Assembly: GCF_009914755.1 (NCBI RefSeq)
Contig: NC_060946.1
Reading direction: 5' to 3' (one strand)
DNA: 64,000 nucleotides
Source of the DNA: the human T2T-CHM13v2.0 reference genome, Homo sapiens
Part shown: piece by piece, positions 2,318 through 25,276 of the stretch
How the letters are laid out: each line of letters opens with the position of its first letter
Position numbering within the stretch: position 1 is the first letter of the stretch
Notes under the pieces: generated by a model
The model's input: the letters and a program-made list of their open reading frames with translations, nothing else
Database searches by the model: none
Told to the model about the DNA's origin: nothing
Made by a program: the position numbers and the translations under genes

Positions 2318-4620
<2,303 letters not shown>

Positions 4621-4791
4621 CGGAAGAGCCAAGGTGTTCTCAGGAGCCACCGTGTGCCACGGCAGCTTCGGGATAACTTGAGGCTGCATCCTGGGGAAGA
4701 AACACCTCCTGTCCGTGGCGCTGACGGCTGAGGACAGAGCTTTGGTGTGGCTTCTCTGCGGCTGGCTTCTTCGGGGAGTTCTTCCATCATG
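4621..4791 (+). other. Candidate distal first (5' UTR) exon of POTE transcripts
   Basis: Non-repetitive CpG-containing block starting at CCGGAAG (ETS-like) and ending at a consensus donor ATG|GTGAGT (4792-4797). Confidence 0.55.
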
Positions 4792-5124
4792 GTGAGTACA
4801 GAAGCTTTCGTTTTCTGGAATGTTCTATGTATTCCTGATGGGTCTTCCTTTTTTCTTTCTTTCCATCTTAGTATGAATTTTATAGTAGTACTCAGTCCCT
4901 GAGGGCTTTTGAGGTTGGAAAGAGTAGGAGGCTTTAGGGCTGTTTCTGAGGGAGACTCCCCATGTAGATGGAGAGAGAGGAAAGCTCTGGCTGTGGGAGG
5001 AAGAGGAAGCCCGGCCTAGGTGGGGTTTTGGGACCAGGCCCCAGTTTGGCTGCCTTGCATCCAAGCCTCAGGTGGAAGGAAAGGATCCCAGCCACCTCCA
5101 GGGTTTGCTGATTTTTTAATTGGT

Positions 5125-5567
5125 TTTATTTTTTTGGAGATAGGGTCTGGCCCTGTTGTGCATCCTGGAGTGCAGTGGCAGATCTCAGCTCACTGCAGCC
5201 TCCACTTTCTGGGCTCAAGGGATTCTCCAGCCTCAGTCTCCCCATTAGCTGGGCTTGTGCCACCATGCCCAGCTATTTTTTTTTTTTTCATATTTTTGCT
5301 GGCCACGGGGTTTCGCCATGTTACCCAGGCTTATCTTGAACTTCTGAACTCAAAGCAATCCTTCCACTTCGGCTTCCCTAAGTGCTGGGATTACAGGTGT
5401 GAACTACTGTGCCTGGTCTGCTGAATTTTGTTTTTCTTGTATTTTTGGTAGAGGCAGGGTTTCGCCATGTTGCCCAGGCTGGTCTCAAACTTCTGAGCTC
5501 AAAGAAATCCTCTCGCCTCAGCTTCCCAAAGTGCCGGGATTACAGGCATGAACTACTGCAGGTGGTC
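5125..5567 (-). mobile_element. AluJ-like element plus an additional partial Alu arm
   Basis: Antisense Alu consensus; second left-arm copy at ~5437-5567. Confidence 0.85.
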
Positions 5568-5935
5568 TACTGAACTTTTACATTTGTTTCCCAGCCGTCG
5601 GGACATAGGGGTCACTTTTCTCAACACCCCCCGCCCCCCACAGCGTCTGCCTAACTCTGTCCATCTAGTCACGGCCACCTGACTGTGGAGGAAGCGCCCT
5701 TCCATGTGGTTTAATGTCTTCTTTGCAGAAATGCCTATTCAGGTTCCCTGCTCAGTTTTGGATGGATCATTTGTTTGTTGTTGCTACTTAGTACTATTAA
5801 TGTGTTGCATATTTTCCATAACAACCCCCATTAGCCGATATGTGATTTGTTCTCCCAGCCTTCCTCTTTGGGCTCATTGTTTCCTTTTCCTTGCAAAAAG
5901 TTTTCACTTTGATGTAGCCATGCATGTTTTTTTAT

Positions 5936-6223
5936 GGCCAGGCGTGATGGTTCATGCCTGTAATCCAAGCACTTTGGGAGGCCAAGGTGGGCAGATCACT
6001 TGAGCCAAACAATTTGAGACCAGCCTGGGCAACGTGGCAAAACTTCATTTCTACAAAAAAATACAAAAAAATTAGCCAGGCGTGGTGGTGTGTGCCTGTA
6101 GTTCCAGCTATTCAGGAGGCAGAGGTGGGAGGATCACTTGTGCCGGAGAGGTCAAGGCTGCAGTGAGCCATGATCATGCCACTGCACTCCAGCCTGAGTG
6201 ACAGAGTCCCTGTCTCAAAAAAA
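5936..6223 (+). mobile_element. AluJ-like
   Basis: Alu consensus with ggaggatcacttg/aggctgcagtgagccatgatc features. Confidence 0.9.
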
Positions 6224-7087
6224 TTTTTTTGATCTTTTTAGTAACATTCATTTCAATAAGAGTGAAATGACATCTGAGTGTTGTTTTGAAGTACTTTTTT
6301 TTGATGAACAGTGATGTTGAGGACCTTTTCTCTTACCTGTTAGTTTTATGTCATCTTTGCAGATAACTCTATTCAAGTTTTTTGCTCAATATGAGTTCAG
6401 ATATGTATTTTTATGCTACTTAGTATTGCTTTTTTCTGTGTACATGTTTGGTAACAACAATTTATCACTTCTATGATTCCCTCAAATTTTCTAACAATTT
6501 TTTTTTGACACAGAGTCTCATTCTCTTACCCAGGCTGGAGCACTGCGGCATATCAGGGATTGTGAGTCCTCCAACTTAGTTTCTATTTCTCAGGATTCCT
6601 TAGACATTCAGGGCCATTTCCATGTGATCATTAGCATTGCGTATTCACATTTCTTAAATTTCTGTGCGTAATAAAGTATATAATTAGAGAGTATGCTGGG
6701 ACTGTTTTTCCTCTGGGACATTTTGGTACATGTATATTTTTAGTAATGATCAAATCAGGGTACTTGCTGTATCTGTTCTCATACAGGTATTATTTCTCTG
6801 TTGTGATAACACTCAAATTGCTCCCTTCTAGCTTTATTGAAAAATGTACTATTTTGTTAACCAGAGTCACCCAGCTGTGGTATAGAATGCAAGAATGTGT
6901 TTGTCCCAACTAACTGCAACTTTGTTTCCATAACCAATCCTTCCATCTCCTCCTTCCCCTGTCTTCGGAAAACCACTACTGTACCTTGTACTTATTGAAG
7001 GCAAAGTTTTTTGGATTCCATATAAGTGAGATGAATTTGCTTGTTTTTCTATGCCAGGCTTATTTTATTTAACAATATATTTTCCAG

Positions 7088-7201
7088 GTTCATCCATATG
7101 GCTCCAAATGAAAATTACATTATTTTGTTAAGGATGAAGAGTATTATTGCATTGTGCAGATACACTGCAGTGTCTTCATCTCTTGATGTGTGGTTGGATA
7201 G
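7088..7201 (+). other. Candidate L1-derived 5' exon B (114 nt)
   Basis: tttccAG|gtt...gatag|GTAGGT; paralogous to 9618..9730 and 11728..11839. Confidence 0.5.
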
Positions 7202-7836
7202 GTAGGTTCATTCCATATCTTCTATATTGTGAATAGCGCTTCATAAAACATGGGAAGGCAGATAATTTTTTATGGTACCAGTTGCCTTTGCTTTAAATGC
7301 ATACCCAGTATGAGAAGCTCCCAAGTTTTTTTCACAGTATGTTCACCAATTTACATCGACATCAATAGCATATATGAGTTTCCCTTTCTGTAAGCCTACA
7401 CTGGTTGCTGCCGTCCAAAATTTTTATTGCTGTTTGGGTAATATTCATTCTCAGTGGAGTTTGATGGTATCTGATATCGGAGTGTGATTCTGACTTACAT
7501 GTTTGGAGTGATTAGTGATGTGGAGAAACTTCTGTTTCACCTGTGAATCAGTTTCATGTCCTTTGCAGAGGTGGTTGTGTATATCCTTTGCATATTTTTA
7601 GCTCGTGTATTTTTTTTTTAATCTTTTCCCCACTTAGTAGCTTTAGTGCTTGAATATGTTAGATAACAACCCCTTCCAAAATTATGATTTTCCACAGTTT
7701 TCCCCCAATCATCCTTTCCGCCAAGGTAGGATGCTTTCTCTTTGGGGTCATTGTTTTCTCCCACATGCGGAAGCTCTAAAGTGTTGGTCTCACAGGTTTA
7801 TATTTGCTTTTGTCAGCATGGATTTCTGTGTCTCAT

Positions 7837-7878
7837 GAGAGAGAGAGAGAGAGAGAGAGAAAGTGAGAGAGAAAGAGA
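7837..7878. repeat. (GA)n microsatellite
   Basis: Direct reading. Confidence 0.95.
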
Positions 7879-9617
7879 TGGCAAAGTCATTGTATTTTCT
7901 ATGGGTATTTTCCCCCTAAGTGAGAACATGTGGTATTTGGTTTTCTGTTCTTTCCTTAGTTTGCTTAGCATAGTGGCCTGCAGGTTCATCCTTCTTGCTG
8001 CCGAGAGCACGAATTTGTTTAAGCTGTGTAGGATTTTGCAGTATCTATATACAACACTTTAAAACATCGAATCAACTGTTAAAGGGAACATAGGTCAATT
8101 TTATTTTATTTTTTCTTGTGAATAGCACTACCAAGAACATACCCATGTCTGTGTCATTTTGAAAGAAGGGTTTATGATTTAGTTTCCTCTGTCTAGATAC
8201 CCAGTTATGCGATTGCTCATTTGGATGGTAGTTGTTAAGTTTTTTGAGGAACCTCCAAACCGCTTCTCATAGTGTGAGCACTAGTTTTTATTCCCTCCAG
8301 GAGTGTAGCAGTGTTTGCTTTCCTCCGCTGCCTTGTCAGCATGTAAATGTTGGACTTTGGACAAATGGCCATTCTGACCGACGGGAGATGGTATCTCAGT
8401 GTGTGTGTGAGTTGCATTTCTCTGATGATGAGTGATGTTGAGGGTTTTTTTTGTCTATTGGTCACTTGTACATCTTATTTTTACAAGAACGTCTTCATGT
8501 CTTGTACCCATTGTTTGATTGGGTTATTTGTTTTTCTGCCTCTTGATTTTTTTAAGGTCACGTTAGAGTCTGGCTATTAGGTCTTGGTCAGAAGCATAGT
8601 TTGGGAACATTTTCTCCCATCCTGTAGGCTATGTTTTTACTGTGCTGGTGATTTATTTTGCTGTCTGGCAGTGTTTTAGTTTCTTAGGCCCAACTTGTCC
8701 ATTTTGGTTTTTCTTGCCGTTGCTCTTAGGGACTAAGTTATTTAAATTCTTTACAAAAGCCCGTGTTGAGAAAGGTCTTTCCTAGTTTTTCTTGTAGGAC
8801 TTGTATAGTTTGTAGTCTTCTGCTGAAATCTTTCATTCACCTTGAGTTAGTTTTTGCATCTTGTGAGAGGTAAGGCTGTAGTGCTGTTCATCTGCAAGTG
8901 GCTAGACACTATCCCAGTGCCATTCATTGCACAGTGAGCCCTTTCCACATCTGAATTTTGGTGTTTCAAAGGTCAGATGGTTGTGGGTATGTGGGGTTGC
9001 TTCTGGGTTTCCTATTCTGTCTAGGTGGAGGTGGGTCTGTAGCTTTTCTGTGAAATTTGAAATTGGAGAGTGTGGTCCATCTGACATCGTCTGAATCTCC
9101 CAGCCTGGCTTTGGAGTTTCAGAGCATTTTGTGGTCCCATGGGAATTTTAGCATTCATTGTTTCTTCACATTGCTTTCAAAAAACAAAATCGACCCCATC
9201 CTAAAGGTGTACAGGTAGGGGGTAGAGTGGAATATTTGGATCCATGCATGCATCACATAGTGATGAAATCAGGGTATATAGTGTCGTTTTTTGCCTTGTA
9301 GAGTGTTCCTGTCTTTGAGTTGAGGAGAGCCAGAACCCTTCTTTCTGGCTGTCTTGAAAACTATCCTCTGGTAAAGTTTTCTCTAGTCACCCTGCTGAGG
9401 AATAGAACAGCAGGTTTCATTTCTCTTATGCAATGTGTCACTTTGTACCTGTTTCCTGTCCCCACCCATGCCCAGCCTTCTGTTCCAACCCTGGCAAGCA
9501 CTATGGTGCTTTGTAGGTCTATGTGAGATTAAAGGGTCTTAGATTCCCCATGACTGAGGTAATGTGAGGTTTGTCTTTCTCTGCCTAGTGACAGACATTT
9601 AACATAATGTCCTCCAG

Positions 9618-9730
9618 GTTCCACAGTGTTGCCACAGATGACGTGATTTCAGTACCTGTGTATGGCTGAAAAGTGTTTGTTTGTGAATGGATATTGCGGT
9701 TTCTGGATCTCATCCTCTGCAGGTGGACAG
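9618..9730 (+). other. Candidate L1-derived 5' exon C (113 nt)
   Basis: cctccAG|gtt...ggacag|GTAGGT. Confidence 0.55.
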
Positions 9731-10854
9731 GTAGGTTGATTCCTTATCTTGGCTATTGCGACTGGTTCCAGAGTCAGCATGGGAAGGCAGATGTGTCTTC
9801 TGTGTACTGGTGACATATGATTCCAGTGCACACCCTGCAGTAGCGTGGCTCGGTGAAATGGTCGTTGTATTTTTAGTTTTCAGAGGAGCCTCCAGGTGGC
9901 CTCTGTAGTGAGCGTACTAATTTACCTTGCCAACAGTTGTGGATAAGAGAGCTCCCCTCTCTGGAAATTCACAGCAGCATTTGTGGTTTCCCTTCTTTTA
10001 ATATATATGAAGTTCTTTGTAATACTCTTTCCTTTGAGAGGGACACGATATCTGAGTCTTGTTCTGATTTTCATTTTTCTTATGATTAGTGATACTAACT
10101 AGGTGTTAACAAGTACATTTGTTTTCAGTGTTGTGTGTTCTTTGCAGAAAAGACTCTTTGGTTTCTTTGCCCAATTTTGGTTTGCTAATTACCTTCTCTT
10201 TTCTGCTGTTTTCTGCTAGTTAGTAGTGTTAGTTACTTACACCTTTTCCAAAAGTCTCCTTAGCTGTGTTTTCCCTGATATCTTTCTTATCATCCTTTGG
10301 ATGTTTGTTTCTTTTCATTCATTGTTTTCGTTCTTTCTTGCCCCCAAGCCATATAGTCTGATGAGTCTGATGCGTATTCAGGGGTGTGCAGTGTTGTGGT
10401 TTTCCACTACGTTGGTTACTGATGAAATAAAGGAAATTCACTAGCATACGAATCTGTTGTGAGTTTTGCTTGTTTGTTGTTTGTATTCTTTTCTTTCCCC
10501 CATATTTTTTCGTTTTCGTTTTTGCAAACTGTAAGCATAGATCCAGGTTGACCCAGGTATCTGCACACCATATACTTTCTTCTCAGAGAGTGATAGTTTC
10601 AAGTTTTGGGTATAGGTCTTTCATTCATGTTGAATAGATGGTTGTGAATTTCACACAATAAGGACCCTATGTTGTTATTTTGCCTAGGGATATCCAGTTC
10701 TCAGAACGCTGTATTGGACAGACTCTCCATTCCTGTGGTGACTTTTGCGGTTCTTTCTAAACATGTGCTTACGCTATATCAATTTGAATTTACTCCTGGG
10801 CATCCTCATTGTGTCCGTTGGCCTGTGTTTCTCTGCTAATGCCTATCACAAATC

Positions 10855-11241
10855 ATCTGGGTAACTAAAGTTTTGGGAAGTAGTTTAAAGTGGAAGAGTG
10901 TGATGGCTCCACCGACTTTGTGTGTGTAGGAATCTGGGTAACTAAAGCTTTGGGAAGTAGGTTAAAGTGGAAGAGTGTGATGGTCCACTGACTTTGTATG
11001 TGTAGGAATCTGGGTAACTAAAGCTTTGGGAAGTAGTTTAAAGTGGAAGAGTGTGATGGCGCTCCACTGACTTTATGTGTGTAGGAATCTGGGTAACTAA
11101 AGCTTTGGGAAGTAGTTTAAAGTGGAAGAGTGTGATGGTCCACTGACTTTGTGTGTGTAGGAATCTGGGTAACTAAAGCTTTGGGAAGTAGTTTAAAGTG
11201 GAAGAGTGTAATGGCGCTCCACCGACTTTATGTGTGTAGGA
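10855..11241. repeat. Minisatellite, 5 copies of a 76-79 bp unit
   Basis: atctgggtaactaaag recurs at 10855, 10932, 11008, 11087, 11163. Confidence 0.95.
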
Positions 11242-11727
11242 GCTGCTTTGGGAGTGCGGGGCACTTCGTTGTCCCACAGGACTTTCAGAAATGTGATGTG
11301 ATCCTATTTGAAAACAAAAATTTCACATGGTCTATGCTTTTACTTTAAGGGTGCAAGGGACCGTTTGACATATGGATCAGTGCTGTTGTGATCAGATTAC
11401 AGGAACTCGCGTCTTTGTTTCAGGCTACAGTGAGGATTTCTTGGTGGAGAGCGTACCCCGATCACCCCTTCACGCTATATCGAATATCATGCTAGGGTAT
11501 TGTTAAGCCTAGTCACCCTGCTAAGCCGTAGAACACCAGAATTCTTGCCATTCATCTGAGTGTCACTTTGTAGCTGTTTCCAAGCCTCCCCTCAGCCTCT
11601 GGTACGCACTGCTGACGTTGCTCCTCTATGAGATTCACTTCGTTAGATTCCACGTGCGTGAGATTGTGCTGTGTTTGTGTTTGTCCTCCTGTGCCTGGCT
11701 CATTTCCTTTAACTTAATGTCCTTCAG

Positions 11728-11839
11728 GTTTCTCCACCTTGCTGGAAGTGACCTGATATCCAGAAGTTTGATGGCTGAGGAGTATACCATTGTGCTTGCG
11801 TCCTTCATTTCCTGCATTTCTTCCTCCATGGATGGACAG
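11728..11839 (+). other. Candidate L1-derived 5' exon D (112 nt) carrying ATGs at 11828 and 11832
   Basis: ccttcAG|gtt...ATGGATGGACAG|GTAGAT; ATG 11832 is in frame with POTE after splicing to 20112, 20223 or 20334. Confidence 0.55.
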
Positions 11840-14800
11840 GTAGATTACCTCTATACCCTGGTTATTGTCCAGAGTACTTCATCAAACATGGGAAGGCAAA
11901 TATCTCCTTAAGTTTCAAGTTTCCTTGGCTTTGCCGGTATACCCAATGTTGGGATGGCTAGAGGAACTGGTAGTTGTATTGTCGTTTCAGAAACCTCCTG
12001 CTGTCTCTCCCAGTGGATATACAAATTTGCATTCCTACCAATAGTGTGTGAGAGTTTCTCTGTCTGCAAATCTACACTGCCCTTATCTTCAAAAAGTTTT
12101 ATTGCTGTTCCTGGTCATACTCGTTCTCTGGGGAGTTTGGCAGTATCTGAGTGTGGTTGGGATTTACATTTAGGGGATGATTACTGATGTGGAGAAACTT
12201 CTGTTACCTGCAAGTCTGTTTCAGGTCTTTTCAGAAATGCCTATGCCAGTCCTTTGGGCATTTTTAGTGTATGTATTGTTTTTTATGATTTTTTCCACTT
12301 AGGACCATTAGTTTCTTGAATATGTTAGATAAGAAGCCCTTCCAGATCCACAGTTTTCCATAATTTTCTCCCAGTCTGTGGGATGTCTTCTGTTGGGTTC
12401 ACTGTTTTCTCTCCAGTGTTGAAGCTGTGTGAAGCTCTGAAGTTGTCCTTAGTCTCACGTGGTCACATGAGCTTTTGTTAGCGGTGATTTCTGTGTCCCT
12501 TTGAGAAGTAAAGCGAGATGGCAAAGCCATTGTATGGTCTACGGGTAGTTGATTCCTATGTATTTTCTGTTTGTAGCTTAGGTTCACAGGTTCAAGTTTC
12601 CCCACAGTAGACACACACCCTATGCGTTTTCCTTGGAGGTTTTGGTTTCACAATTGCTCTTTGGTGTTCAGTGGATTTTGTGTCATTTTTTGTGTCTTGT
12701 GTAAGAGAAGGGTTTATTTCAGTCCTTTGCACATGAACCCCCCAGTTTGTTCAACCATTGTGCCTTTGGTGTGCTTTTGGGGGAAAAGCAAGAATCCCAT
12801 GGGTTCAGTGTTTATAATTGTGGGTTGATTATTTGGCTCCTTTGTTGTGTCCATTCGGTTATCTTTCTGTGTTCATGCCACTAATGGATGGATTGGGCCA
12901 CTGTAGGCTTTTTCTTTTGTTTTGTGTGTTTTCTTGTATTTTTTTCCTTTTTTTCCATTTCCATTTCCAAAGCTGGGTTTTCTAAAATGATAGCTACTTT
13001 TATTGTGATGGAGGGGTGTATGCCTGCAGGTTCATTTCACTACATGGCTATACAGCAGACTTTTGATGCTTGAGGTCCCAACTTACCCGTCACCCAGACA
13101 GTGAACACAGCACCAGTTGGATCATTCTTCCTCCAAGGCTTCCTGTCTCCCTCCTTTTTCTGTCTGGTAGTACCCAACGTCTGTTGATTTCATCTTTATG
13201 TTCGTGTGTGTTCAGTGTTGAGTTTCTGCCTGTAAGTGAAAATCTGTGGTGTTTGGTCTTTTGTTCTTGCCTGAGTTCGCTTAGCAGAGTGGCCTGCAGT
13301 TCTATCTATGTTGCTGCTGAGGGCATGATTTTGTTTCTGTGTTTGATTTTCCTTGGTGGCTTCTTAGTATTCTGTGGTGTATAGGTATCACATTTAAAAA
13401 CACCTGATTTTCTGTTGGTGGGCATCTAGGTCAGGTCCACGTCTTTATTCCTGTGAGTAGCACTCCCATGAACATGCAAATGTGTGTGTCTTTTTGATAG
13501 ACACATGTATTTTTCCCTGGGGTAGATACACAGGGTTGGATTGCTGGGTAGAAGGGTAGCTCTGCTTCCTTTCCCTCTTTGTTGTTGTTGTTGAGGAATC
13601 TTGAAACTGCTCTCCGCAGTGTGAGACCTAGTTTGCATTACCCCAAGAGTGTAGCTGTTTTCGCTTTTATGTACTGCTACACAAATATGTTTTGTGTTTG
13701 GACAAATGGCCATTCTGACTGGTGTGTGATGGCACTGGTACCTCATCTCTGATGATTAGTGATGTTGAGCATTTTCTCGTGTCTGTTGGTCTTTTTTAGG
13801 TCTTGTTTTGACTAGTGTGTTTGTATCATTTGCCCATTTTTTACTTGTGTTATTTTTCTGCTTCTTGATTTAGGTAAGGTCCTCTAGATTCTGGCTGTTA
13901 GAACTTGGTCAGATGCTTGGTTTGGGAACATTTTCTCCCATCATGTAGTCTATGTGTTTACTGTGTTGGCAATTGCTTTGCTGTGCAGCAGGTCCGTAGT
14001 TTCTTAGGCCAGACTTGTACTTTTTGTTTTTTCTTGCATTTCTTTTGGGTACTAAATTGTCTTAAGTGGTTTGCAAAAGCCTATGTTGAGAAAGGTGTTT
14101 AATAGGTTGTCTGTTAGGACTTTTATATTTGAAGTCTTCTATTTCAGTCTTTGGTTCATCTTGAGTTAATTTTCCATATGATGACAAGCAGGGCTGCAGT
14201 GTTAATTGTCCTGCACATGGCTAGTCATGTATCCCAGTGCCATTCATCGCATAGTGAGCCTTTTCTTTCTTATTTCTGTGGTTTTGTCAAAGGTCAGATG
14301 GTTGTACTTCTGCCAGGCTACTTCTGCATTTTCTAACTTGTCTAGGTGAAAGCTAGGTCATTTTTTTTCTGTTACGATCTATTCTGATTTCTTGGATTCA
14401 AGAACAGATAAATAAATTTTAGAAACTGAAGAACCCACTTAGACATTCTCAAGGTTAGAAACCATCACCATCATCCTATTCTGTGATGCTATGGACTTTA
14501 TTGAGTTACATCTTTGCCCTTTTCCCTCAAGTCTCTCCTCTGGATTTATTTTGTGAAATTAGATTCTGAATCACATTTTGTTGCATAAACTGTGCTTGAG
14601 CAAAAAAAAAATTTTTTTTTCTAAAAACATCCTTAGTATACATGGGGTGAAGAACAACAAACGTGTCTCCTCTTTCCACTAGTCACACCATTACACTCCT
14701 TTCCAGCCTCTTTGCTGCTGCATATGGCCATTCAAATGAGCCCTGGCTAAGTACATGTCGATAGAAGTTAATGTTTGCTTCTTGCAAGCCTGGCCCGTGA

Positions 14801-15886
14801 TTCTATGTTCTGATTTAGAACATTCTGATTTAGAACATAAAAAGGAAGTGAGACTTGCTGAATGAGACAGAGAAAGCACTCTTGAACGCTTCCTCTGACA
14901 AGCTCCAAGGCACACTAGTTGTTTTGCAGTGCTTTGGACAGCTACTCATTTGTTGGACAATAATTTCCCAACATGGGGACAACCCAGAACATTTTCCACG
15001 TTCATATTCTGCTTCAGTTGCTCATGGTTTTGGTCAAAGCTAGACAGTGACTAATGCAGGAGACTCAGACCCCAGGCCAGCGTGGAGTCCTGTGGTTGAA
15101 GACAGGCTGGACCGTCAGAGGAAGAAAACAGCCATTTTTTCTGGATTTTCACTTTCTCTGTTTTCAGGAAACCTGAAGCCGGTTATGTTATTCAGGCATG
15201 ACTGAAAAGAGATTATTTTGAGTTGTTTTGGTGGCACCAAGAAATGTGCCAATGTGACGGCCAAAAAAGCAGAAAGACCAAGGCATTGAGTGTGGGAGAG
15301 CCACTGATGATGCTGGGTTTGGTAGGCTTTTCGAGATCTCCCAGCCCCAAAACAGCCAAGCAACTTTGTCCTGGGTTGTGAGTGGGCTCAGCCCCTGTGT
15401 ACACCCATGCTTGGATTCTGGCACACATGGCACCCACAGGAGGCAACGCCCCCTCCAGGAGACCGGTTGGCAGGACCCTGTCTCCACACGTGAAGACAGC
15501 AGGCAGAACCCACACGTCCTCTACTTCTCCCAGTGCCAGTCACCCATGGGGGTTCACGATGAGACCCACAGGTCCAACCTGCAGGCAGAGTTACCACCCC
15601 AGCCTGAGTCAAAGTGGACCTTTTTCTGCCAGAGGGGTCTGCTTTCCCATTGGCCAAAATGGCCTCAAATGACAGGGACAGAACAAGGCACAAGTGCCCA
15701 TTAGAGTGTCTGAGCCCACCTGCTGTCTGCTCCCACACATCTCCTGGGAGGTCCCAGCAGGCACCCAGGCCTGGGCCACAGCTTACCCCACATTCAGAAG
15801 TGGATAGCACAGCTGCCCTGTGCAGGCCTCAGGGAGGAAAGGGAGAAAGAGAGATGACAAAAGCAAGACAGAGGAAATGCAGCAAA

Positions 15887-15888
<2 letters not shown>

Positions 15889-15936
<48 letters not shown>
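15889..15936. repeat. (CA)n microsatellite
   Basis: Direct reading. Confidence 0.95.
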
Positions 15937-15937
<1 letters not shown>

Positions 15938-16309
15938 TGACACTCATCTGGGGCAGGCCATCCTGTCACCATGACGAGCAGTGCAGGCAGCCGAGAGCCG
16001 GGCAGGAGGCGGTGCCGCTGTCCCCTGAGTTAGGGTCTGGATCCAGGGAAGAACATAGAGTCCATAGAGTCAAGGGCCACTGACCTCAGGACCTGCAGTT
16101 TGCAGGGAGGGGATGCTGTGAGAAGAACTGTTCCACGTCACAGCTAAATATGTCTGACTTCAAGAAAATATTTCAAACCAAAGTACATTTATGGAAGATT
16201 CTCGATGATATAAAAAAAGCACAGTTTAGAAAATGGGAAAGCAATCACTGGACAGATTCATATATTTTCATCTAAATTTAGTTACAGAGTTTTTCTAAAA
16301 CTGGGATCA

Positions 16310-16600
16310 GGCCAGGTATGGTGGCTCAGGCCTGTAATCCTAGTACTTTGGGAGCCTGAGGCAGGAGGATCACTTGAGACTGGGAGTGGGAGACCAGCCT
16401 GGGCAACATGGTGAGACCCCTTATCTCTACCAAAAATACAGAACTTGGCCAGTCATGGTAGCACGCCCCTGTAGTCCCAGCTACTCAGAAGGCTGAGGTG
16501 GGAGGATTGCTTGAACCTGGGAGGTTGAGGCTGCAGTTAGACAAGATTGCACCACTGCATTCCAGCCTGGGTGACAGCCCGTCTCAAAAAATAATAACAA
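16310..16600 (+). mobile_element. AluJ-like
   Basis: Alu consensus. Confidence 0.9.
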
Positions 16601-18646
16601 TAATTCCTGATTTTAATAACGATTCTGGAGTTGTGTAGGTTCTCACTCACGTGGGAGCTAAAGAAACTTGAACCCATGGACAAAGAGAATACAATGGCAG
16701 TACCAGAGGCTGGGAAGACTGGGTATGTGGAAGGGAGAATGAAGAGAAGTTGGCTATTGGGTACAAACCTACATTTAGAAGAAATAGGCTGTAATGTTTG
16801 ACAGCAGGCTGTGGTGGCTAAGTAATATTATTATGTGTAAATATTCAAAGTAACCAGAATACACATTTTATGCATGTAACAAGTATTTGTATGTACCCTA
16901 CAAAGAGGTAAAATATTATGTGTCAGTAAGATGGAGAGGTTATGCCCAAGCCTCCAGAGAGGGGCTCCTTGGATCCACACAGCACATCTTGCCCACCTGC
17001 ATCCATTGCTGCACTATGCTCGTCATATCTGGGCCTTCATGTTCTGGTCCCCAAGGCAGGTGATGCTGAGTCAGGTGGCCACACTGTGGACCTGGGTGTT
17101 GGTGGCCCAGAGGGTGGGTGCTAGAGGCTTCCTGCCCTTCTTGTTCCACTGGGACCAGATGGAGCCAGGCAGTGACAGGCTACCACCTTCTTGACCAGAT
17201 CCTGGAACACAGGAGTGTCTCACCTGGCCCCTCATCATCCCAACTTAGCACCCAAAGTACCTTCGGGCCTGGACCATGGCTGGGCCGGAACTCAGGATGG
17301 TTAGGATGCAGCTCAAGCCTTGTGGCATCTCTGGGTTCTCTGTCCACTGAGGGTGCCCTGGGACACAAAGCTGGTGGGAAGAGGTTGGCATTTCCCCAGC
17401 CTATCCTTACTCATGCCAAGCACCCCAGACTGTCCTTCCTGGTGCATTGCCCTGGTCACATTCCCCAGGGCAGCTCAGGGCTTTGATTAGGGATTTCCCA
17501 TAGTCAGGTGCCTGATAAGTGTTGAGATGTGCAAGGCCACGTGGGCAGATGGGTAGGTACTCTTTGGTGAGCACCCCCAGCAGGGCAGTCCCCCACCCAG
17601 GTGTCTACCTGCTCCTGCTTGTGTTTGACTGTTACAGCACCTCATGCCAGGGCCACCAGCTCCCATCCCTCCTGTCAGGAAGGACACAGACAGCAAGCGT
17701 CTGGGGGTAAGGCATTTGCCAGGTGACACAGGTGGCGAGTGCCGGAGCTGGGATTTGAACCCGGATCATGGTACTCTGTATGGGGCAATGGAAGGTTTGA
17801 GGATGCCCATGTAGGAAGGAAGGGCAACGTGGCCCCACTGAGCCCAGCTGCTCCCTGTGAGCCTGGAGGAAATTGCTCAGCCCCCCAGCTGGGGAGAGAG
17901 TCCAGGAGGCCAGGCTTTCTCTTGCTTCCTGGCTCAGGGGATCACAGAGGAACAAGGAAATTTAGTGTGTGTGTCTTCTTTTTGTTTCATTCAAAATTTA
18001 ATTTAGTATCAAGCAAGAGGAGCTTTAGCTTAACCCTGCATATCAGGCAAGATTTCAGTTACAAAATAGTACCTTTTTTTTTTTTTTGCACTTGTGATTG
18101 GCTTTTCCTCTACTTCTTTTGGTAAGAGCAGGTTGGTGTCCAGGCTCAGAATCCATTTTTCCTCCCACACCAAAGCACCTGTGGTGTGGGTGAAGCAGAC
18201 TGGAGCCTGGCTGCATAAAGCTTTGCAGCAGGAGAGTCCTGGCAGGAGCATTGAGGTGCCACTGCCCTGGTCCAGCTCAGAGGCCAGCACCAGGGAGGCT
18301 CAGTGTCTTGTTCTCAGGATCTGCACGTGGGGTTGCCTTTCTGCATCTCCCCATCAGTGGTAGGTGCTCCTCCAAGCCCCCTCTTGCTGGCCTGGACACA
18401 GCGGCCTGCACCTTGACCCTATTGCATGCCAGTGGAGCAGAGCCCCCCAGGCCAGAAGCCCCACAGATGTTGGCCCTGGCTTGGACAGGCAGGGGGCACC
18501 GGGGCAGGAGCTGGCTGCGATCCTGTGGCCCCAAATGCCCCCTCGCTGATGGCCTCGTGTTCTGGGTGTGGAGCAAAGAGGAGCAGGTATCGAAGGCACC
18601 TCAGGCAGGTGCTGGGCTCAGTGGGCGTCTTGTGCTCCATGATTTT

Positions 18647-18891
18647 TTTTTTCAAATTTTATTATTATTATACTTTAAGTTTTAGGGTACATGTGCGTAA
18701 CGTGCAGGTTTGTTACATATGTATACATGTGCCATGTTGGTGTGCTGCACCCATTAACTCGTCATTTAGCATTAGGTATATCTCCTAATGCTATCCCTCC
18801 CCCCTCCCCCCACACAACAGTCCCCGGTGTGTGATGTTCCCCTTCCTGTGTCCGTGTGTTCTCGTTCCATTCCCACCTGTGAGTGAGAACA
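18647..18891 (-). mobile_element. Young 5'-truncated L1PA 3' end with TSD
   Basis: Antisense L1PA 3' UTR; TSD tgctcc(a/g)tgatttt at 18633-18646 and 18892-18905. Confidence 0.92.
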
Positions 18892-19225
18892 TGCTCCGTG
18901 ATTTTGAGGCCATTTGCAGCCAGCTCCGCCAGCCGGTGCTCTGAGCTGCAGCAGCGGCCATGCACAACAGCACCACCAGGAGTGTCCTGGGGGCTTTCTT
19001 CAGAGGAGGCTGTCAGCATCCTCAAGTTCCAGCCACTTAGCCCCAGTCCTGCTTCAAGAAGCTTTTTCTTTCACCAGAGGCTTCTCAATGGCCTGAAAGC
19101 TCGGCTGACTCCCAGGAAGTTTGCCGGGAAACACCAGGCTGTCAGTGACATTCGTGGTTCCAAGGCTTATGCAGGTTGCACGCATCGGCCACTGTCTGTG
19201 CCACGTGTACTGACACCACCAGAGA

Positions 19226-19600
19226 TGCGCACGCCGCACGCCGCACGCGCACGCCGCACGCGCACACGCACGCCGCACGCGCACGCCGCACGCGCAGCAG
19301 TGGCTTGGCTGGCTTGTAACGGCTTGCACGTGCATGCCGCGCGCGCACGCCGCACGCGTGGCAGTGGCTTGGCTGGCTTGTAAGGGCTTGCACGTGCATG
19401 CCGTGCGCGCACGCCGGACGCGTATAACGGTTTGGCTGGCCTGTAACTGCTTGCACGCGCATGCCGCACGTGCGTAATGGCTTGGCTGGCCTGTAATGGC
19501 TTGCACGCGCATGCTGCACGCGCGTTAACGGCTTGGCTGGTCTGTAACAGTCGGCATGCGCACACTGCACGTGCGTAACGGCTTGGCTGGCCTGTAGCGC
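19226..19600. promoter_or_regulatory. CpG-rich promoter-proximal minisatellite (6 units of 50-64 bp) with alternating purine-pyrimidine tracts
   Basis: ggcttggctgg anchor at 19302, 19366, 19429, 19479, 19530, 19580; CACGTG and GCGCATGC motifs; ~400 bp upstream of the POTE ATG. Confidence 0.7.
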
Positions 19601-19729
19601 TTGGCTTGGCTTTGCGTTCTTTGCTTGGCTTGGCGTTTGTCGCTTGGATTGACATTTCTTCCTTGGACTGACGTTTTTTCTGTCACGTTACTTTGCTGGA
19701 CTTGACCTTTTCTCTTCTGGGTTTGGCAT

Positions 19730-19880
19730 TCCCTTGGGTGGGCCGGGTGTTTTCTTGGGGGGTGGGGTTGGCCCTTCCTGGGGTGGGCGTGGGGTCGCCC
19801 AGCGTGGGTGTGGGCTTTCCCCAGGTGGGTGTGGGTTTTCCCTGGGTGGGGTGGGCTGGGCTCCCCTGCTGGGGTTGGCA
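19730..19880 (+). promoter_or_regulatory. G-rich promoter segment (GGGTGGGG/GGGTGTGGG boxes, G-quadruplex potential)
   Basis: More than 10 G3+ runs within 150 nt. Confidence 0.55.
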
Positions 19881-20004
19881 GGTTTTGGTCGGGACTTTTC
19901 TCTTCAAACAGATTAGAAACCCGGAGTTATCTGCTAGTTGGTGAAACTGGTTGGTAGACGCGATCTGCTGGCTACTACCGGCCTCCCCTGGCTGTTAAAA
20001 GCAG

Positions 20005-20525
20005 ATGGTGGCTGAGGCTGGTTTAATGCCAGCTGCCTCCTCTGTGAAGAAGCCATTTGGTCTCAGAAGCAAGATGGGCAAGTGGTGCCGCCACTGCTTC
20101 CCCTGGTGCAGGGGGAGCGGCAAGAGCAACGTGGGCACTTCTGGAGACCACGACGATTCTGCTATGAAGACACTCAGGAGCAAGATGGGCAAGTGGTGCC
20201 GCCACTGCTTCCCCTGGTGCAGGGGGAGCGGCAAGAGCAACGTGGGCACTTCTGGAGACCACGACGACTCTGCTATGAAGACACTCAGGAGCAAGATGGG
20301 CAAGTGGTGCTGCCACTGCTTCCCCTGCTGCAGGGGGAGCGGCAAGAGCAAGGTGGGCCCTTGGGGAGACTACGACGACAGCGCTTTCATGGAGCCGAGG
20401 TACCACGTCCGTCGAGAAGATCTGGACAAGCTCCACAGAGCTGCCTGGTGGGGTAAAGTCCCCAGAAAGGATCTCATCGTCATGCTCAAGGACACTGACA
20501 TGAACAAGAAGGACAAGCAAAAGAG
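20005..20525 (+). CDS. POTEG/POTEM/POTEH: POTE ankyrin domain family (group 3, 508-aa type) coding exon 1: Cys-rich repeats and start of ankyrin region
   Basis: MVAEAG...[24 protein letters not shown] x3...KDKQKR; donor AG|GTAACC at 20526; paralog cannot be fixed from sequence alone. Confidence 0.95.
20062..20394 (+). repeat. Three coding 111-bp (37-aa) Cys-rich repeats
   Basis: ctcag(a/g)agcaagatgggcaagtggtgc at 20062, 20173, 20284. Confidence 0.95.
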
Positions 20526-24258: not shown

Positions 24259-25276
24259 CTCCACAAATAGTTTCATAAATCCATTTTAAAAAGAGAAAAT
24301 TTATAACAGTCTTAAATCCTAATATGAATGATTGGAAATATCTGATGTACATACATTGTATAAATCTAAGTATTGAAAAAAATGAGCCCATGCTATTCAT
24401 TTCAATTCCAAGTTTTGTTTGGCTTAAAGTTTATTGAAAACCAAAGTAAGAATTGGTTTATTTTAGAAATTTGTTTTTGTTTTCACTTCAGCTCTCTTAT
24501 TCCATAGTACTTTTAAGAACTAAAATTTAAATGCTGGTCATCTGACTGGAACCGCCCCAGACCTGTTACATTATAACATATTCTACTTAATGTAAGGCAC
24601 CAGAGATTGTACGATGCCCCATTATTTTATGTCTCAATAAGAGAATTATTTAAATGCCGCCAATTATAGTAAATCATGAATTGTAAGTGGTATTTCAGTG
24701 GAGACAACATGGAGACAATGATCATCTCAGAATCACTAAAATACAATGTTAGCTGTAATATTTAAAACACACCTGAAAGTGTAGGTATAATTGTATCATC
24801 TCACTTAATTCAAATGTTGTCTTTAGTGGTATTAGTAAAAATCATAATATCTAACAATTATTGAGCTGTTATTTGTGTTAGGAACTATTCTGTATCTTTT
24901 GTGCCGAGTCTCATTTAAGCATTACAGTGGTTTCCTGTGAGAAAGCTACTATTTTCATTCCTATTTTATTGATGAGGAAACTGAGACCCCAAAAGGCTAA
25001 GCAACAGCCAGAAAGTGACAGAGCTTCAAGTAGGATTCCAGCCCAAGTTGAATGTCATCCAAGGGCTATGCTCTTTGTATTCATATAGGCTGCTCTTTCA
25101 TTAATACAGCGAGTAATGAGAGATAATAAATCGTGTGCTTTTTTCATGGGAAAGTTAAATGTTTGTTTTGAAGGCACAGTAATAGCAGGCTATTCAGTGT
25201 TTGCGATTATGTGTATCATTGATATGGCTGTAGCTAGTGCACTACAATTTCCTAAAAAGTCTTCTCACCCTCATAG

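What the first reader, a model, noticed from the sequence alone, without database searches (positions are those of the whole stretch)
4621..20334. Distal promoter and three L1-derived exons can splice into acceptors built into each Cys-rich repeat, possibly setting the number of membrane-targeting motifs
Seen: a non-repetitive exon with donor GTGAGT (4621-4791) and three paralogous 112-114 nt exons (7088, 9618, 11728), all from the same position of duplicated antisense L1, each with yAG|gtt and ag|GTAG ends. Seen: every 111-bp repeat in exon 1 has ccactgcttcccctg(g/c)tgcAG directly after its Cys cluster (AG at 20110-11, 20221-22, 20332-33). Joining 11839 to these sites gives ATG GAC AG|G GGG AGC (MDRGSGKS...), in frame with POTE and retaining 2, 1 or 0 Cys clusters. 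The ATG 4 nt earlier (11828) opens the overlapping frame ([15 protein letters not shown]..., stop at 20456). Established: the POTE Cys-rich repeats are linked to palmitoylation and membrane targeting. I recall POTE/B305D isoform cDNAs with such leaders but cannot verify this. Inference: promoter and acceptor choice tunes localisation.
Basis: partly seen in the sequence, partly recalled or inferred. Interest (0 to 1): 0.8.

Follow-up and report, generated by a model that had tools for sequence, protein, structure and literature searches.

The report
L1-derived alternative 5' exon of POTEH
Upstream of human POTEH, one old LINE-1 fragment matches the first coding exon of an orangutan POTE gene model that splices into the cysteine-rich repeats, but the rest of the proposed four-exon leader, its promoter and any effect on membrane targeting remain unproven.

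Summary
By sequence alone the idea looked weak. The AG acceptor is common to L1 copies at this place (18 of 19 dispersed copies), while the GT donor is in only 3 of 13. A crude weight matrix finds 7-24 equally good AG..GT pairs in the same 15 kb. The putative exons are no better conserved than their flanks in paralogs. One chr14 copy has lost the E2 donor. Ten ATGs precede the proposed start. RefSeq annotates E1 on the opposite strand.

One result supports the central junction. An NCBI orangutan model (P0035, POTE member B-like isoform X2) begins with 14 residues that match the 3' end of E4 (11796-11837; 11 of 14, and 12 of 14 in the human chr2 copy that I take to be POTEKP). It then continues at the residue after a Cys cluster. 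That is the proposed E4-to-repeat-acceptor splice, in frame.

In the POTEH/chr14 lineage that start codon reads TTG, a new out-of-frame ATG lies 4 nt before the remaining in-frame ATG, and the donor has lost its +5 G. No human transcript of this form was found.

Verdict: partly supported. E4 and the repeat acceptors are plausible. E1-E3, the distal promoter and the tuning of localisation are unsupported.

The parts
4621..4791 (+). E1 candidate: a 171-nt low-copy segment ending ATG|GTGAGT. Unverified as a + strand exon.
   Evidence: Searches give the sequence. The donor is in the top 0.4% of GT sites. It has 11 genomic matches. There is no CpG island, and AT-rich L1 lies directly upstream. A 67%-identical chr5 copy keeps GTGAGTA.
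4610..4790 (-). RefSeq-annotated first exon of LOC124905152 (MED15 pseudogene 7) on the opposite strand, overlapping E1.
   Evidence: Hub gene table. Read on the minus strand it starts ATGATGG at 4790 and ends CAG|GCAAGT at 4610|4609, a consensus-type GC donor.
7088..7201 (+). E2 candidate, from antisense L1. Probably a cryptic pseudo-exon.
   Evidence: Acceptor score 1.58, donor 4.33, with 24 equally good pairs nearby. The donor is GT->CT in one chr14 copy.
9618..9730 (+). E3 candidate, from antisense L1. Probably a cryptic pseudo-exon.
   Evidence: Acceptor score 1.85, donor 6.42, with 7 equally good pairs nearby. Not more conserved than its flanks.
11728..11839 (+). E4: an antisense-L1 exon whose 3' end matches the N-terminal leader of an orangutan POTE model. 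Likely a real alternative 5' coding exon in this POTE lineage.
   Evidence: match of the 14-residue leader; P0035. By my arithmetic it lies antisense to about residues 1211-1248 of L1 ORF2p.
11796..11834 (+). Start-codon region of E4. TTG 11796-98 stands where the chr2 copy has ATG and where the orangutan model starts with M. ATG 11828 is out of frame and derived. ATG 11832 is in frame.
11840..11845 (+). E4 donor GTAGAT. The +5 G seen in the other paralogs has been lost here.
   Evidence: The score is 2.39, against 6.42 for the GTAGGT form.
6900..14348 (-). Three old L1 3'-end fragments, sense on the minus strand: about 6900-9027, about 9383-11241 (including a 76-bp x5 tandem repeat at 10855-11241) and about 11509-14348. 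The ends are approximate.
   Evidence: Self-BLAST. T over A skew. TRF. ORF2p match through L040.
19227..19603 (.). CpG-rich tandem repeats just upstream of the annotated POTEH start. This is the canonical promoter region.
   Evidence: TRF. 32 and 25 CpGs per 200 bp, observed/expected 1.25-1.29.
19953..20525 (+). Annotated POTEH exon 1, with the coding sequence starting at 20005.
   Evidence: Hub gene table. The translation gives 508 aa.
20062..20379 (+). Array of 111-bp (37-aa) cysteine-rich repeats, 2.9 copies.
20091..20111 (+). Acceptor-like motif after Cys cluster 1. An exon would start at 20112 and keep 2 clusters.
   Evidence: Score 6.24. In frame.
20202..20222 (+). Acceptor-like motif after Cys cluster 2. 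An exon would start at 20223 and keep 1 cluster.
   Evidence: Score 6.24. In frame.
20313..20333 (+). Acceptor-like motif after Cys cluster 3. An exon would start at 20334 and keep no cluster.
   Evidence: Score 7.73. In frame.

Best explanation
About 15 kb upstream of POTEH is an old duplicon containing antisense L1 3'-end fragments. It is found next to POTE only at chr22, at two chr14 sites and at chr2:132.0 Mb.

The L1 fragment nearest the gene, E4 (11728-11839), is most likely a real exonised L1 piece in this POTE lineage. It would serve as an alternative 5' coding exon whose donor joins the AG that follows a Cys cluster inside the first coding exon. That splice bypasses the canonical promoter, the canonical ATG and at least one cysteine-rich repeat.

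The acceptor exists because the codons for H-C-F-P-W/C-C-R read as a pyrimidine tract followed by CAG. It therefore recurs in every 111-bp repeat of every POTE paralog examined.

In human POTEH and the two chr14 copies this isoform looks degraded. The start codon seen in orangutan and in the chr2 copy is TTG. A new out-of-frame ATG sits 4 nt before the remaining in-frame ATG. The donor has lost its +5 G. If the junction is used in human POTEH at all, it probably yields a rare, poorly translated or non-coding transcript.

E1-E3 are most likely not part of it. E2 and E3 carry the same L1-derived sites as E4. E1 is annotated as an exon on the opposite strand.

Shown here: the sequence features, the frames, the L1 origin, the match of the leader to the orangutan model and the states in the paralogs.
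Inferred: that the orangutan model rests on RNA evidence, and that the same splice occurs in human.
For: - P0035 (894 aa, 8 cluster members, named by NCBI as POTE member B-like isoform X2, Pongo pygmaeus) begins with a 14-residue leader and then RGSGKS.
- That leader matches the window only at 11796-11837 (+), at 11 of 14. The chr2:132.0 Mb copy matches at 12 of 14, including the M.
- Of 30 proteins of 491-1565 aa, only P0035 covers residues 1-60 in full; the other 29 cover 75-83%.
- The acceptors are in frame and rank in the top 0.2-0.6% of 4436 AG sites.
- The acceptor motif is present in 13 of 13 POTE loci examined, 1-4 copies each.
- Derived changes in POTEH: the donor is GTAGAT, against GTAGGT in 4 of 4 other copies. 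The start position reads TTG CGT, against ATG CAT in the chr2 copy and ATA TAT in 3 outgroup copies. ATG 11828 is found only in the POTEH sequence among the five aligned, and also in both chr14 copies.
- Against E1-E3 as exons: identity to the chr2 copy is 473/510 in the four putative exons and 2250/2400 in their flanks. Identity to the older chr22 copy is 414/494 and 1768/2100. The E2 donor is CT in one chr14 copy.
- Ten ATGs precede 11832 in the four-exon leader.
- E1 overlaps a RefSeq minus-strand exon with a CAG|GCAAGT donor (hub table).
- Published background: consensus L1 carries strong putative splice sites, exonisation is rare, and it is commoner in old elements (PMC6108849, passages read).
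Against: - The orangutan support is a predicted protein model. I could see neither its transcript nor its evidence statement nor its genomic locus. An ab initio extension cannot be excluded.
- RefSeq on this assembly lists a single POTEH transcript and nothing on the + strand between 4791 and 19953 (hub table).
- No human protein starting in this way appeared among the 20 and 8 sequences I read. Isoforms hidden inside 90%-identity clusters could not be listed.
- Each repeat acceptor has only one A in its 27-nt AG-free zone, in a poor branch-point context.
- E4 as a splice-site pair has 24 equally good decoys within 15 kb.
- The splice-site matrix uses frequencies recalled from memory and discriminates poorly. 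Real POTEH acceptors score from -2.6 to 6.0.
Confidence: 0.5

Rival explanations
1. All of it is cryptic in human. E1-E4 are pseudo-exons of the kind that antisense L1 and any 15 kb of intergenic DNA supply in numbers. The repeat acceptor is a by-product of codon sequence and is never used. The orangutan model is a prediction artefact or a species-specific event.
For: - There are 24, 7 and 24 equally good AG..GT pairs in 4792-19952.
- The acceptor AG is present in 18 of 19 dispersed L1 copies.
- There is no conservation excess.
- RefSeq has no such human transcript (hub table).
- Attig et al. state that exonisation of L1 splice sites is rare and is repressed.
- The start codon is lost and the donor is weakened in POTEH.
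Against: A gene model in another ape uses this exon and this acceptor, in frame. The 14-residue leader matches nowhere else in the window. The human chr2 copy keeps the ATG and the strong donor.
Confidence: 0.32
2. A distal promoter at about 4621 drives E1-E2-E3-E4. The choice among the three repeat acceptors sets the number of Cys clusters (2, 1 or 0) and so tunes palmitoylation and membrane targeting of POTEH.
For: - All the splice-like sites are present and in frame.
- The E1 donor is in the top 0.4% and the E3 donor in the top 0.3% of GT sites.
- The sites of E1-E4 are kept in the chr2 copy and, except for the unaligned E1 start, in the older chr22 copy.
- The orangutan model shows that one such junction exists and keeps one cluster.
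- A 2007 paper title links POTE palmitoylation to plasma-membrane targeting. I saw it only in a reference list.
Against: - No promoter features lie upstream of 4621: 0-1 CpG per 200 bp, in L1 sequence.
- E1 is annotated on the opposite strand.
- The E2 donor is destroyed in one 99%-identical chr14 copy.
- Ten upstream ATGs, one in a strong context, precede 11832. Three of them (9687, 11771, 11828) open the overlapping frame that ends at 20454.
- Repeat number already varies from 1 to 4 at the DNA level among the loci examined.
- There is no evidence for use of more than one acceptor.
Confidence: 0.06
3. E4 is a first exon with its own start site inside or just upstream of the L1 fragment, not an internal exon fed from E1-E3. 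It gives a short-leader transcript, in which translation would start at a downstream Met if the E4 ATGs are bypassed.
For: - The orangutan coding sequence starts inside E4, and in the human sequence an in-frame stop lies upstream within the exon, so no upstream coding exon is required.
- A bonobo isoform X2 (P0053, 829 aa) starts at the Met after all the repeats. Other ape POTE models therefore also have 5' ends that drop the repeats.
Against: No start-site data are available. No promoter-like composition is seen at 11241-11727. E4 has a good acceptor (top 3.6% of AG sites) with a TTTAAC-type branch-point motif about 20 nt upstream.
Confidence: 0.12

Closest known systems
Exonisation of antisense L1 fragments (Attig et al. 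2018, PMC6108849, passages read; Kaer et al. 2011, PMC3192792, search listing only)
   Same: An old L1 fragment lying antisense to the transcript supplies both a 3' and a 5' splice site. The AG is part of the L1 sequence at this place. Older elements are the ones that escape repression.
   Different: Here the exon would be a 5' coding or leader exon upstream of the canonical promoter, not a cassette exon within an intron. It would join an acceptor inside a coding exon. Use in human is not shown.
L1 antisense-promoter chimeric transcripts (PMC4908685, search listing only)
   Same: L1 sequence provides an alternative 5' end to a neighbouring gene.
   Different: Those transcripts start at the antisense promoter in the L1 5' UTR (recalled). 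The fragments here are the 3' end of ORF2 (residues 1139-1273) and have no known promoter.
NCBI model 'POTE ankyrin domain family member B-like isoform X2' of Pongo pygmaeus (P0035)
   Same: It has the same leader peptide as the 3' end of E4 and the same junction at the residue after a Cys cluster.
   Different: The orangutan sequence (and the human chr2 copy) has an ATG where POTEH has TTG. The model carries an actin fusion (894 aa) that POTEH lacks. Its untranslated exons could not be seen.
POTE cysteine-rich repeats of 37 aa (PMC6001627 and PMC9483601, passages read; Das et al. 2007, title only)
   Same: The 111-bp units at 20062-20379 encode these repeats.
   Different: The literature I could read describes differences in repeat number between paralogs (three in POTED, four in POTE-22), not variation by splicing. 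This assembly's POTEH has three repeats and 508 aa.

Membership tests
L1-derived (antisense) exon | The sequence derives from L1 | tested here: met
   The E4 region gives 653 first-look candidates genome-wide, with 66-74% identity to dispersed copies. The opposite strand of copy L040 encodes L1 ORF2p residues 1139-1273, E 5.9e-52. Pfam scans of the degenerate window ORFs found nothing (0 of 14).
L1-derived (antisense) exon | The L1 lies antisense to the proposed transcript | tested here: met
   The window + strand matches L040 in reverse orientation relative to its ORF2 reading frame. T over A skew runs through 3000-14400.
L1-derived (antisense) exon | Flanked by AG and GT splice signals | tested here: met
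   Scores are given.
L1-derived (antisense) exon | Included in a spliced transcript | tested here: inconclusive
   E4: the orangutan protein model P0035 begins in its counterpart, but no human transcript was seen. E2 and E3: no evidence of any kind.
Alternative promoter or first exon of POTEH | A transcription start with promoter features | tested here: not met
   0-1 CpG per 200 bp in 4000-4599 and L1 sequence up to 4620. The only CpG-rich region is 19200-19599. Start-site data such as CAGE are not available here.
Alternative promoter or first exon of POTEH | An annotated or published transcript | tested here: not met
   The hub table lists one POTEH transcript, and the only feature at E1 is on the minus strand. 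Paper searches found none. The early POTE papers are not held.
Functional 3' splice site inside the cysteine-rich repeat | Pyrimidine tract plus CAG, followed by G | tested here: met
   Scores of 6.24, 6.24 and 7.73, in the top 0.2-0.6% of AG sites. The matrix is built from recalled frequencies.
Functional 3' splice site inside the cysteine-rich repeat | A usable branch point | tested here: inconclusive
   There is a single A in the 27-nt AG-free zone, about 18 nt upstream, in a weak context.
Functional 3' splice site inside the cysteine-rich repeat | Observed use | tested here: inconclusive
   The P0035 junction lies at the homologous residue. P0051, a colobine hypothetical protein, also starts just before the corresponding R (by eye). 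There are no human data.
POTE cysteine-rich repeat | 37-aa (111-bp) tandem unit with a Cys cluster | tested here: met
POTE cysteine-rich repeat | Palmitoylated and needed for membrane targeting | not testable with these tools
   I saw only the title of Das et al. 2007, in a reference list. The paper is not held.

The most novel reading that the evidence does not exclude
An L1-derived 5' exon shared by orangutan and human is a working alternative start for the POTE genes on chr22, chr14 and chr2:132 Mb. Because every 111-bp coding repeat carries a strong in-frame acceptor, the choice of promoter, together with the copy number of the repeat array, sets how many Cys clusters (putative palmitoylation motifs) the protein carries. 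In human POTEH this would give an MDRGSGKS-initiated protein with two, one or no clusters and an altered location in the cell.
Probability: 0.1. Interest if true: 0.6.

Novelty: new member of a known kind. Interest (0 to 1): 0.4.

Why it matters
POTE proteins are primate-specific cancer-testis antigens under study as tumour markers and vaccine targets. An alternative L1-derived 5' exon that removes the N-terminus and one or more cysteine-rich repeats would change which peptides and epitopes are made. It might also change where the protein sits in the cell. It would further be a clear example of a coding tandem repeat that doubles as a series of splice acceptors. At present only one junction has indirect support, from an orangutan gene model, and the human POTEH copy looks degraded. 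The practical value is therefore a specific, cheap test on existing long-read RNA data.

Tried and rejected
- Literature. The B305D search gave one irrelevant paper. POTE searches gave nothing on upstream exons. In PMC7073761 the words 'promoter' and 'upstream' each occur 0 times. Das 2007, Bera 2002 and a recalled identifier for the POTE-actin paper are not held, so the palmitoylation claim and any early cDNA 5' ends could not be read. I opened no supplements.
- Pfam on stop-to-stop ORFs of the minus strand gave 0 of 14 with a family. On ORFs of five dispersed L1 loci it gave 0 of 5. L1 identity was then shown through the PDB sequence search.
- The conservation test, exons against flanks, gave no signal in either direction. 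At 6-16% divergence it has little power.
- Origin of E1. The chr5 copy (67% over about 500 bp) keeps the GTGAGTA donor but has no CpG island. I could not name a source gene.
Only 6 kb could be read.
- I looked for human isoforms with the E4 leader among proteins of 30-490 and 491-1565 aa and found none. Members of 90%-identity clusters cannot be listed, so this is weak evidence of absence.
- I considered splicing within exon 1 between repeat units. The donors in the repeats are weak (AAC|GTGGGC, score 0.94). The only good donor there, 20352 (5.26), lies after the last acceptor. I did not pursue this.
- MaxEntScan and SpliceAI are not available. The weight matrix uses frequencies recalled from memory and separates real POTEH sites poorly.

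Full report
WHAT WAS CLAIMED AND WHAT IS THERE

The window is T2T-CHM13 chr22:16244001-16308000 (hub note; confirmed). All the stated sequence features are present.
- The 171-nt segment 4621-4791 ends ATG|GTGAGT.
- Three segments of 114, 113 and 112 nt (7088-7201, 9618-9730, 11728-11839) each start after yAG with GTT and each end AG|GTAG.
- The 21-nt motif ending in CAG occurs exactly three times, ending at 20111, 20222 and 20333. That is once per unit of a 111-bp tandem repeat (2.9 copies, 95% match, 20062-20379).

Joining 11839 to 20112, 20223 or 20334 puts ATG 11832 in frame with POTEH. The ORFs are 475, 438 and 401 codons and end at the POTEH stop. ATG 11828 opens the overlapping frame, which stops at 20454-20456. 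The canonical protein in this assembly has 508 aa and three repeats.

L1 ORIGIN

The E4 region matches dispersed copies all over the genome: 653 first-look candidates, of which 40 were scored, mostly at 66-74% identity. In one of them, L040, the strand opposite to the window's + strand carries a 152-aa open frame. That frame matches L1 ORF2p residues 1139-1273 of the solved structures at E 5.9e-52. So E4 lies antisense to the C-terminal end of ORF2. By my arithmetic from those alignments it is opposite about residues 1211-1248.

The three window copies are only about 69-70% identical to each other. All three are already present in an 82-87% identical older copy of the region 5-18 kb upstream of the window. 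They are old L1 3' ends lying head to tail. As I recall, L1 insertions are truncated at the 5' end, so each copy would carry the same 3' segment.

Among 21 dispersed loci (L039-L059), one gave no hit. Of the 19 that cover the acceptor, 18 have AG there. Of the 13 that cover the donor, only 3 have GT there. The acceptor is therefore an L1 family trait. The donor form CAG|GTAGGT is a minority form, shared by the three window copies and their paralogs.

IS IT MORE THAN CHANCE?

I used a simple weight matrix built from frequencies that I recalled, not from a tool. In 4792-19952 (+) there are 24, 7 and 24 other AG..GT pairs 50-250 nt apart that score at least as well on both ends as E2, E3 and E4. 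The matrix is weak. The 10 annotated POTEH acceptors score from -2.6 to 6.0 and the 8 GT donors from 0.1 to 8.5; one further annotated donor is GC.

Two things stand out all the same. The repeat acceptors (6.24, 6.24, 7.73) are in the top 0.2-0.6% of the 4436 AG sites on the + strand and beat every annotated POTEH acceptor. The E1 and E3 donors are in the top 0.3-0.4% of 3872 GT sites.

Each repeat acceptor has only one A in its 27-nt AG-free zone. Other acceptor-like sites lie just upstream of the coding start, at 19078 (6.57), 19825 (5.16) and 19912 (3.46). These would keep the whole protein.

GENOMIC CONTEXT

E1 has 11 matches in the genome.
- Two on chr14 are 100% identical.
- One at chr2:132.01 Mb is 95% identical.
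- An older set is 83-84% identical: on chr22 22 kb upstream, on chr14 (two), on chr13 and on chr2.
- chr8 and chr5 each have a copy at 78%.

E4 shows the same pattern. POTE exon 1 is found at 13 POTE loci. Only those on chr22, on chr14 (two) and at chr2:132.026 Mb have the E1-E4 region next to them. From a recalled gene map I take the chr2 locus to be POTEKP.

Homology with the chr15, chr18 and chr21 POTE loci starts only at about window 18080. Homology with the other chr2 loci starts at about 18370-18500.

A chr8:47.51-47.56 Mb region is collinear with window 4.6-19.86 kb at 69-82% identity. It then jumps to 24314-24435, so it lacks the stretch that holds POTE exon 1.

The acceptor motif is present in all 13 POTE loci examined, 1-4 copies each. 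This includes loci without the upstream region. It follows from the coding sequence and is not tied to the upstream exons.

TESTS THAT SPEAK AGAINST THE FULL MODEL

1. No extra conservation. Against the chr2 copy the four putative exons are 473/510 identical and their 300-nt flanks 2250/2400. Against the older chr22 copy the figures are 414/494 and 1768/2100.
2. In one of the two 99%-identical chr14 copies the E2 donor is CT instead of GT.
3. The four-exon leader has 10 ATGs before 11832. The first, at 4789, is in a strong context. Three (9687, 11771, 11828) open the overlapping frame that ends at 20454.
4. Upstream of 4621 lies AT-rich L1 sequence with 0-1 CpG per 200 bp. The only CpG-rich stretch is 19200-19599, at the annotated promoter.
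5. RefSeq places the first exon of a MED15 pseudogene transcript on the minus strand at 4610-4790. Read on that strand it ends in CAG|GCAAGT, a consensus-type GC donor (hub table). Its start at 4790 lies 1 nt from the + strand donor boundary at 4791|4792, which I cannot explain.
6. RefSeq lists a single POTEH transcript and nothing on the + strand between 4791 and 19953.

THE RESULT THAT SUPPORTS THE CENTRAL JUNCTION

I searched the protein database with the translation of POTEH exon 1, restricted to longer proteins (55 hits among 2962 candidates). I read 20 of the hits.

One hit, P0035, is named by NCBI 'POTE ankyrin domain family member B-like isoform X2 [Pongo pygmaeus]'. It has 894 aa and 8 cluster members. 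It starts MHPSFPAFLPPWME and continues RGSGKS. It therefore resumes at the residue after a Cys cluster, and it keeps one cluster.

The 3' end of E4 translates as LRPSFPAFLPPWMD, and AG|G gives the R. In a six-frame scan of the whole window, the only place matching 8 or more of the 14 residues is 11796 (+), at 11 of 14. Both chr14 copies also give 11 of 14. The chr2 copy gives 12 of 14, including the initial M. The older chr22 copy gives none.

Only P0035 covers residues 1-60 in full. Among 30 proteins of 491-1565 aa, the other 29 cover 75-83%. Among 21 proteins of 30-490 aa none carries the leader; of the 8 I read, seven have the canonical start and P0056 begins at an internal Met of the canonical N-terminus.

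As I understand the NCBI pipeline (my own knowledge, not checked here), alternative isoforms are built from transcript or RNA-seq alignments. On that basis the model probably reflects a real intron. I could not see the record.

Two further ape or monkey models drop the repeats at the 5' end.
- P0053, a bonobo isoform X2, starts at the Met after all the repeats.
- P0051, a colobine hypothetical protein, starts four residues before the R that follows a cluster. This is by eye, and the record is of unknown quality.

STATE OF THE HUMAN COPIES

- At the orangutan start codon the chr2 copy reads ATG CAT, POTEH and both chr14 copies read TTG CGT, and three older copies (chr22, chr2, chr8) read ATA TAT.
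- The out-of-frame ATG at 11828 exists only in POTEH and the chr14 copies.
- The donor is GTAGAT in POTEH and the chr14 copies, and GTAGGT in the chr2 copy and the three older copies. The scores are 2.39 and 6.42.

Relative to the form used in the orangutan model, the POTEH lineage has lost the start codon, gained a competing ATG and weakened the donor. The chr2 copy keeps all three features.

INTERPRETATION

The most likely reading (about 0.5) is as follows.
- E4 together with the repeat acceptor is a genuine alternative 5' end in this POTE lineage.
- It is of the known kind 'exonised old antisense L1'.
- In human POTEH it is at best rare and poorly translated.
- E1-E3 and the distal promoter are not part of it.

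Rival readings:
- Everything is cryptic in human and the orangutan model is an artefact or species-specific (about 0.3).
- E4 is a first exon with its own start site (about 0.1).

The link to palmitoylation and membrane targeting rests on a paper I could see only as a title. Papers I could read state that the repeats are 37 aa and that their number differs between paralogs. That agrees with the 1-4 copies I counted at the DNA level.

NOVELTY

My six searches and the passages read found no description of an upstream L1-derived POTE exon or of splicing into the repeats. The early POTE papers and all supplements were out of reach. The kind of event is well known: exonisation of antisense L1, with old elements escaping repression (PMC6108849). 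The orangutan model already sits in a public database. I therefore rate this as a new member of a known kind, of moderate interest. Its main value is that it can be tested directly on existing long-read data.

Noticed in passing
window 4610-4791, both strands: The RefSeq minus-strand exon starts at 4790, 1 nt from the + strand ATG|GTGAGT boundary (4791|4792). It ends in a consensus-type GC donor, CAG|GCAAGT, at 4610|4609. The near-coincidence of the two boundaries is unexplained.
   Followed up: partly
window 20062-20379; loci L009-L023: The number of 111-bp cysteine-rich units differs among the POTE loci examined, from 1 to 4 motif copies per locus. POTEH has 3 here (508 aa). A review states four for the original POTE-22 cDNA. 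One chr14 copy has 4.
   Followed up: partly
G000:C8:47508512-47555945 (L038, L069): A chr8 region near 47.5 Mb is collinear with window 4.6-19.86 kb at 69-82% identity. It then continues at window 24314-24435, so it lacks the 4.5 kb that contains POTE exon 1. It is either an old copy with a deletion or the donor of the POTE upstream region.
   Followed up: partly
G000:C22:16226048-16239054 (L063, L066), i.e. window -17950 to -4950: An older direct copy (82-87% identity) of the E1-to-L1 block lies just upstream of the window, inside the span of the MED15 pseudogene. It keeps the splice-like sites of E2-E4 but lacks both E4 ATGs.
   Followed up: partly
L062/L065 (chr14:13.26-13.28 Mb), position homologous to window 7202: One of the two 99%-identical chr14 copies has CT instead of GT at the E2 donor.
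   Followed up: yes
window 10855-11241: A 76-bp unit is repeated 5 times (93% match). It appears to derive from the antisense L1 sequence of the middle fragment; that judgement is from recall.
   Followed up: no
window 19227-19603: CpG-rich tandem repeats of 64 and 50 bp periods, with 57 CpGs in 400 bp, lie directly upstream of the annotated POTEH start.
   Followed up: no
L060 (chr5:179369000-179374000): A chr5 stretch of about 500 bp aligns at 67% with window 4639-5100 and keeps the GTGAGTA donor on the same strand as E1. No CpG island lies nearby and I did not identify a source gene.
   Followed up: partly
P0053 and P0051: A bonobo POTE isoform X2 starts at the Met after all the repeats. 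A colobine hypothetical protein starts four residues before the R that follows a Cys cluster. Both are further gene models with 5' ends that drop the repeats.
   Followed up: no
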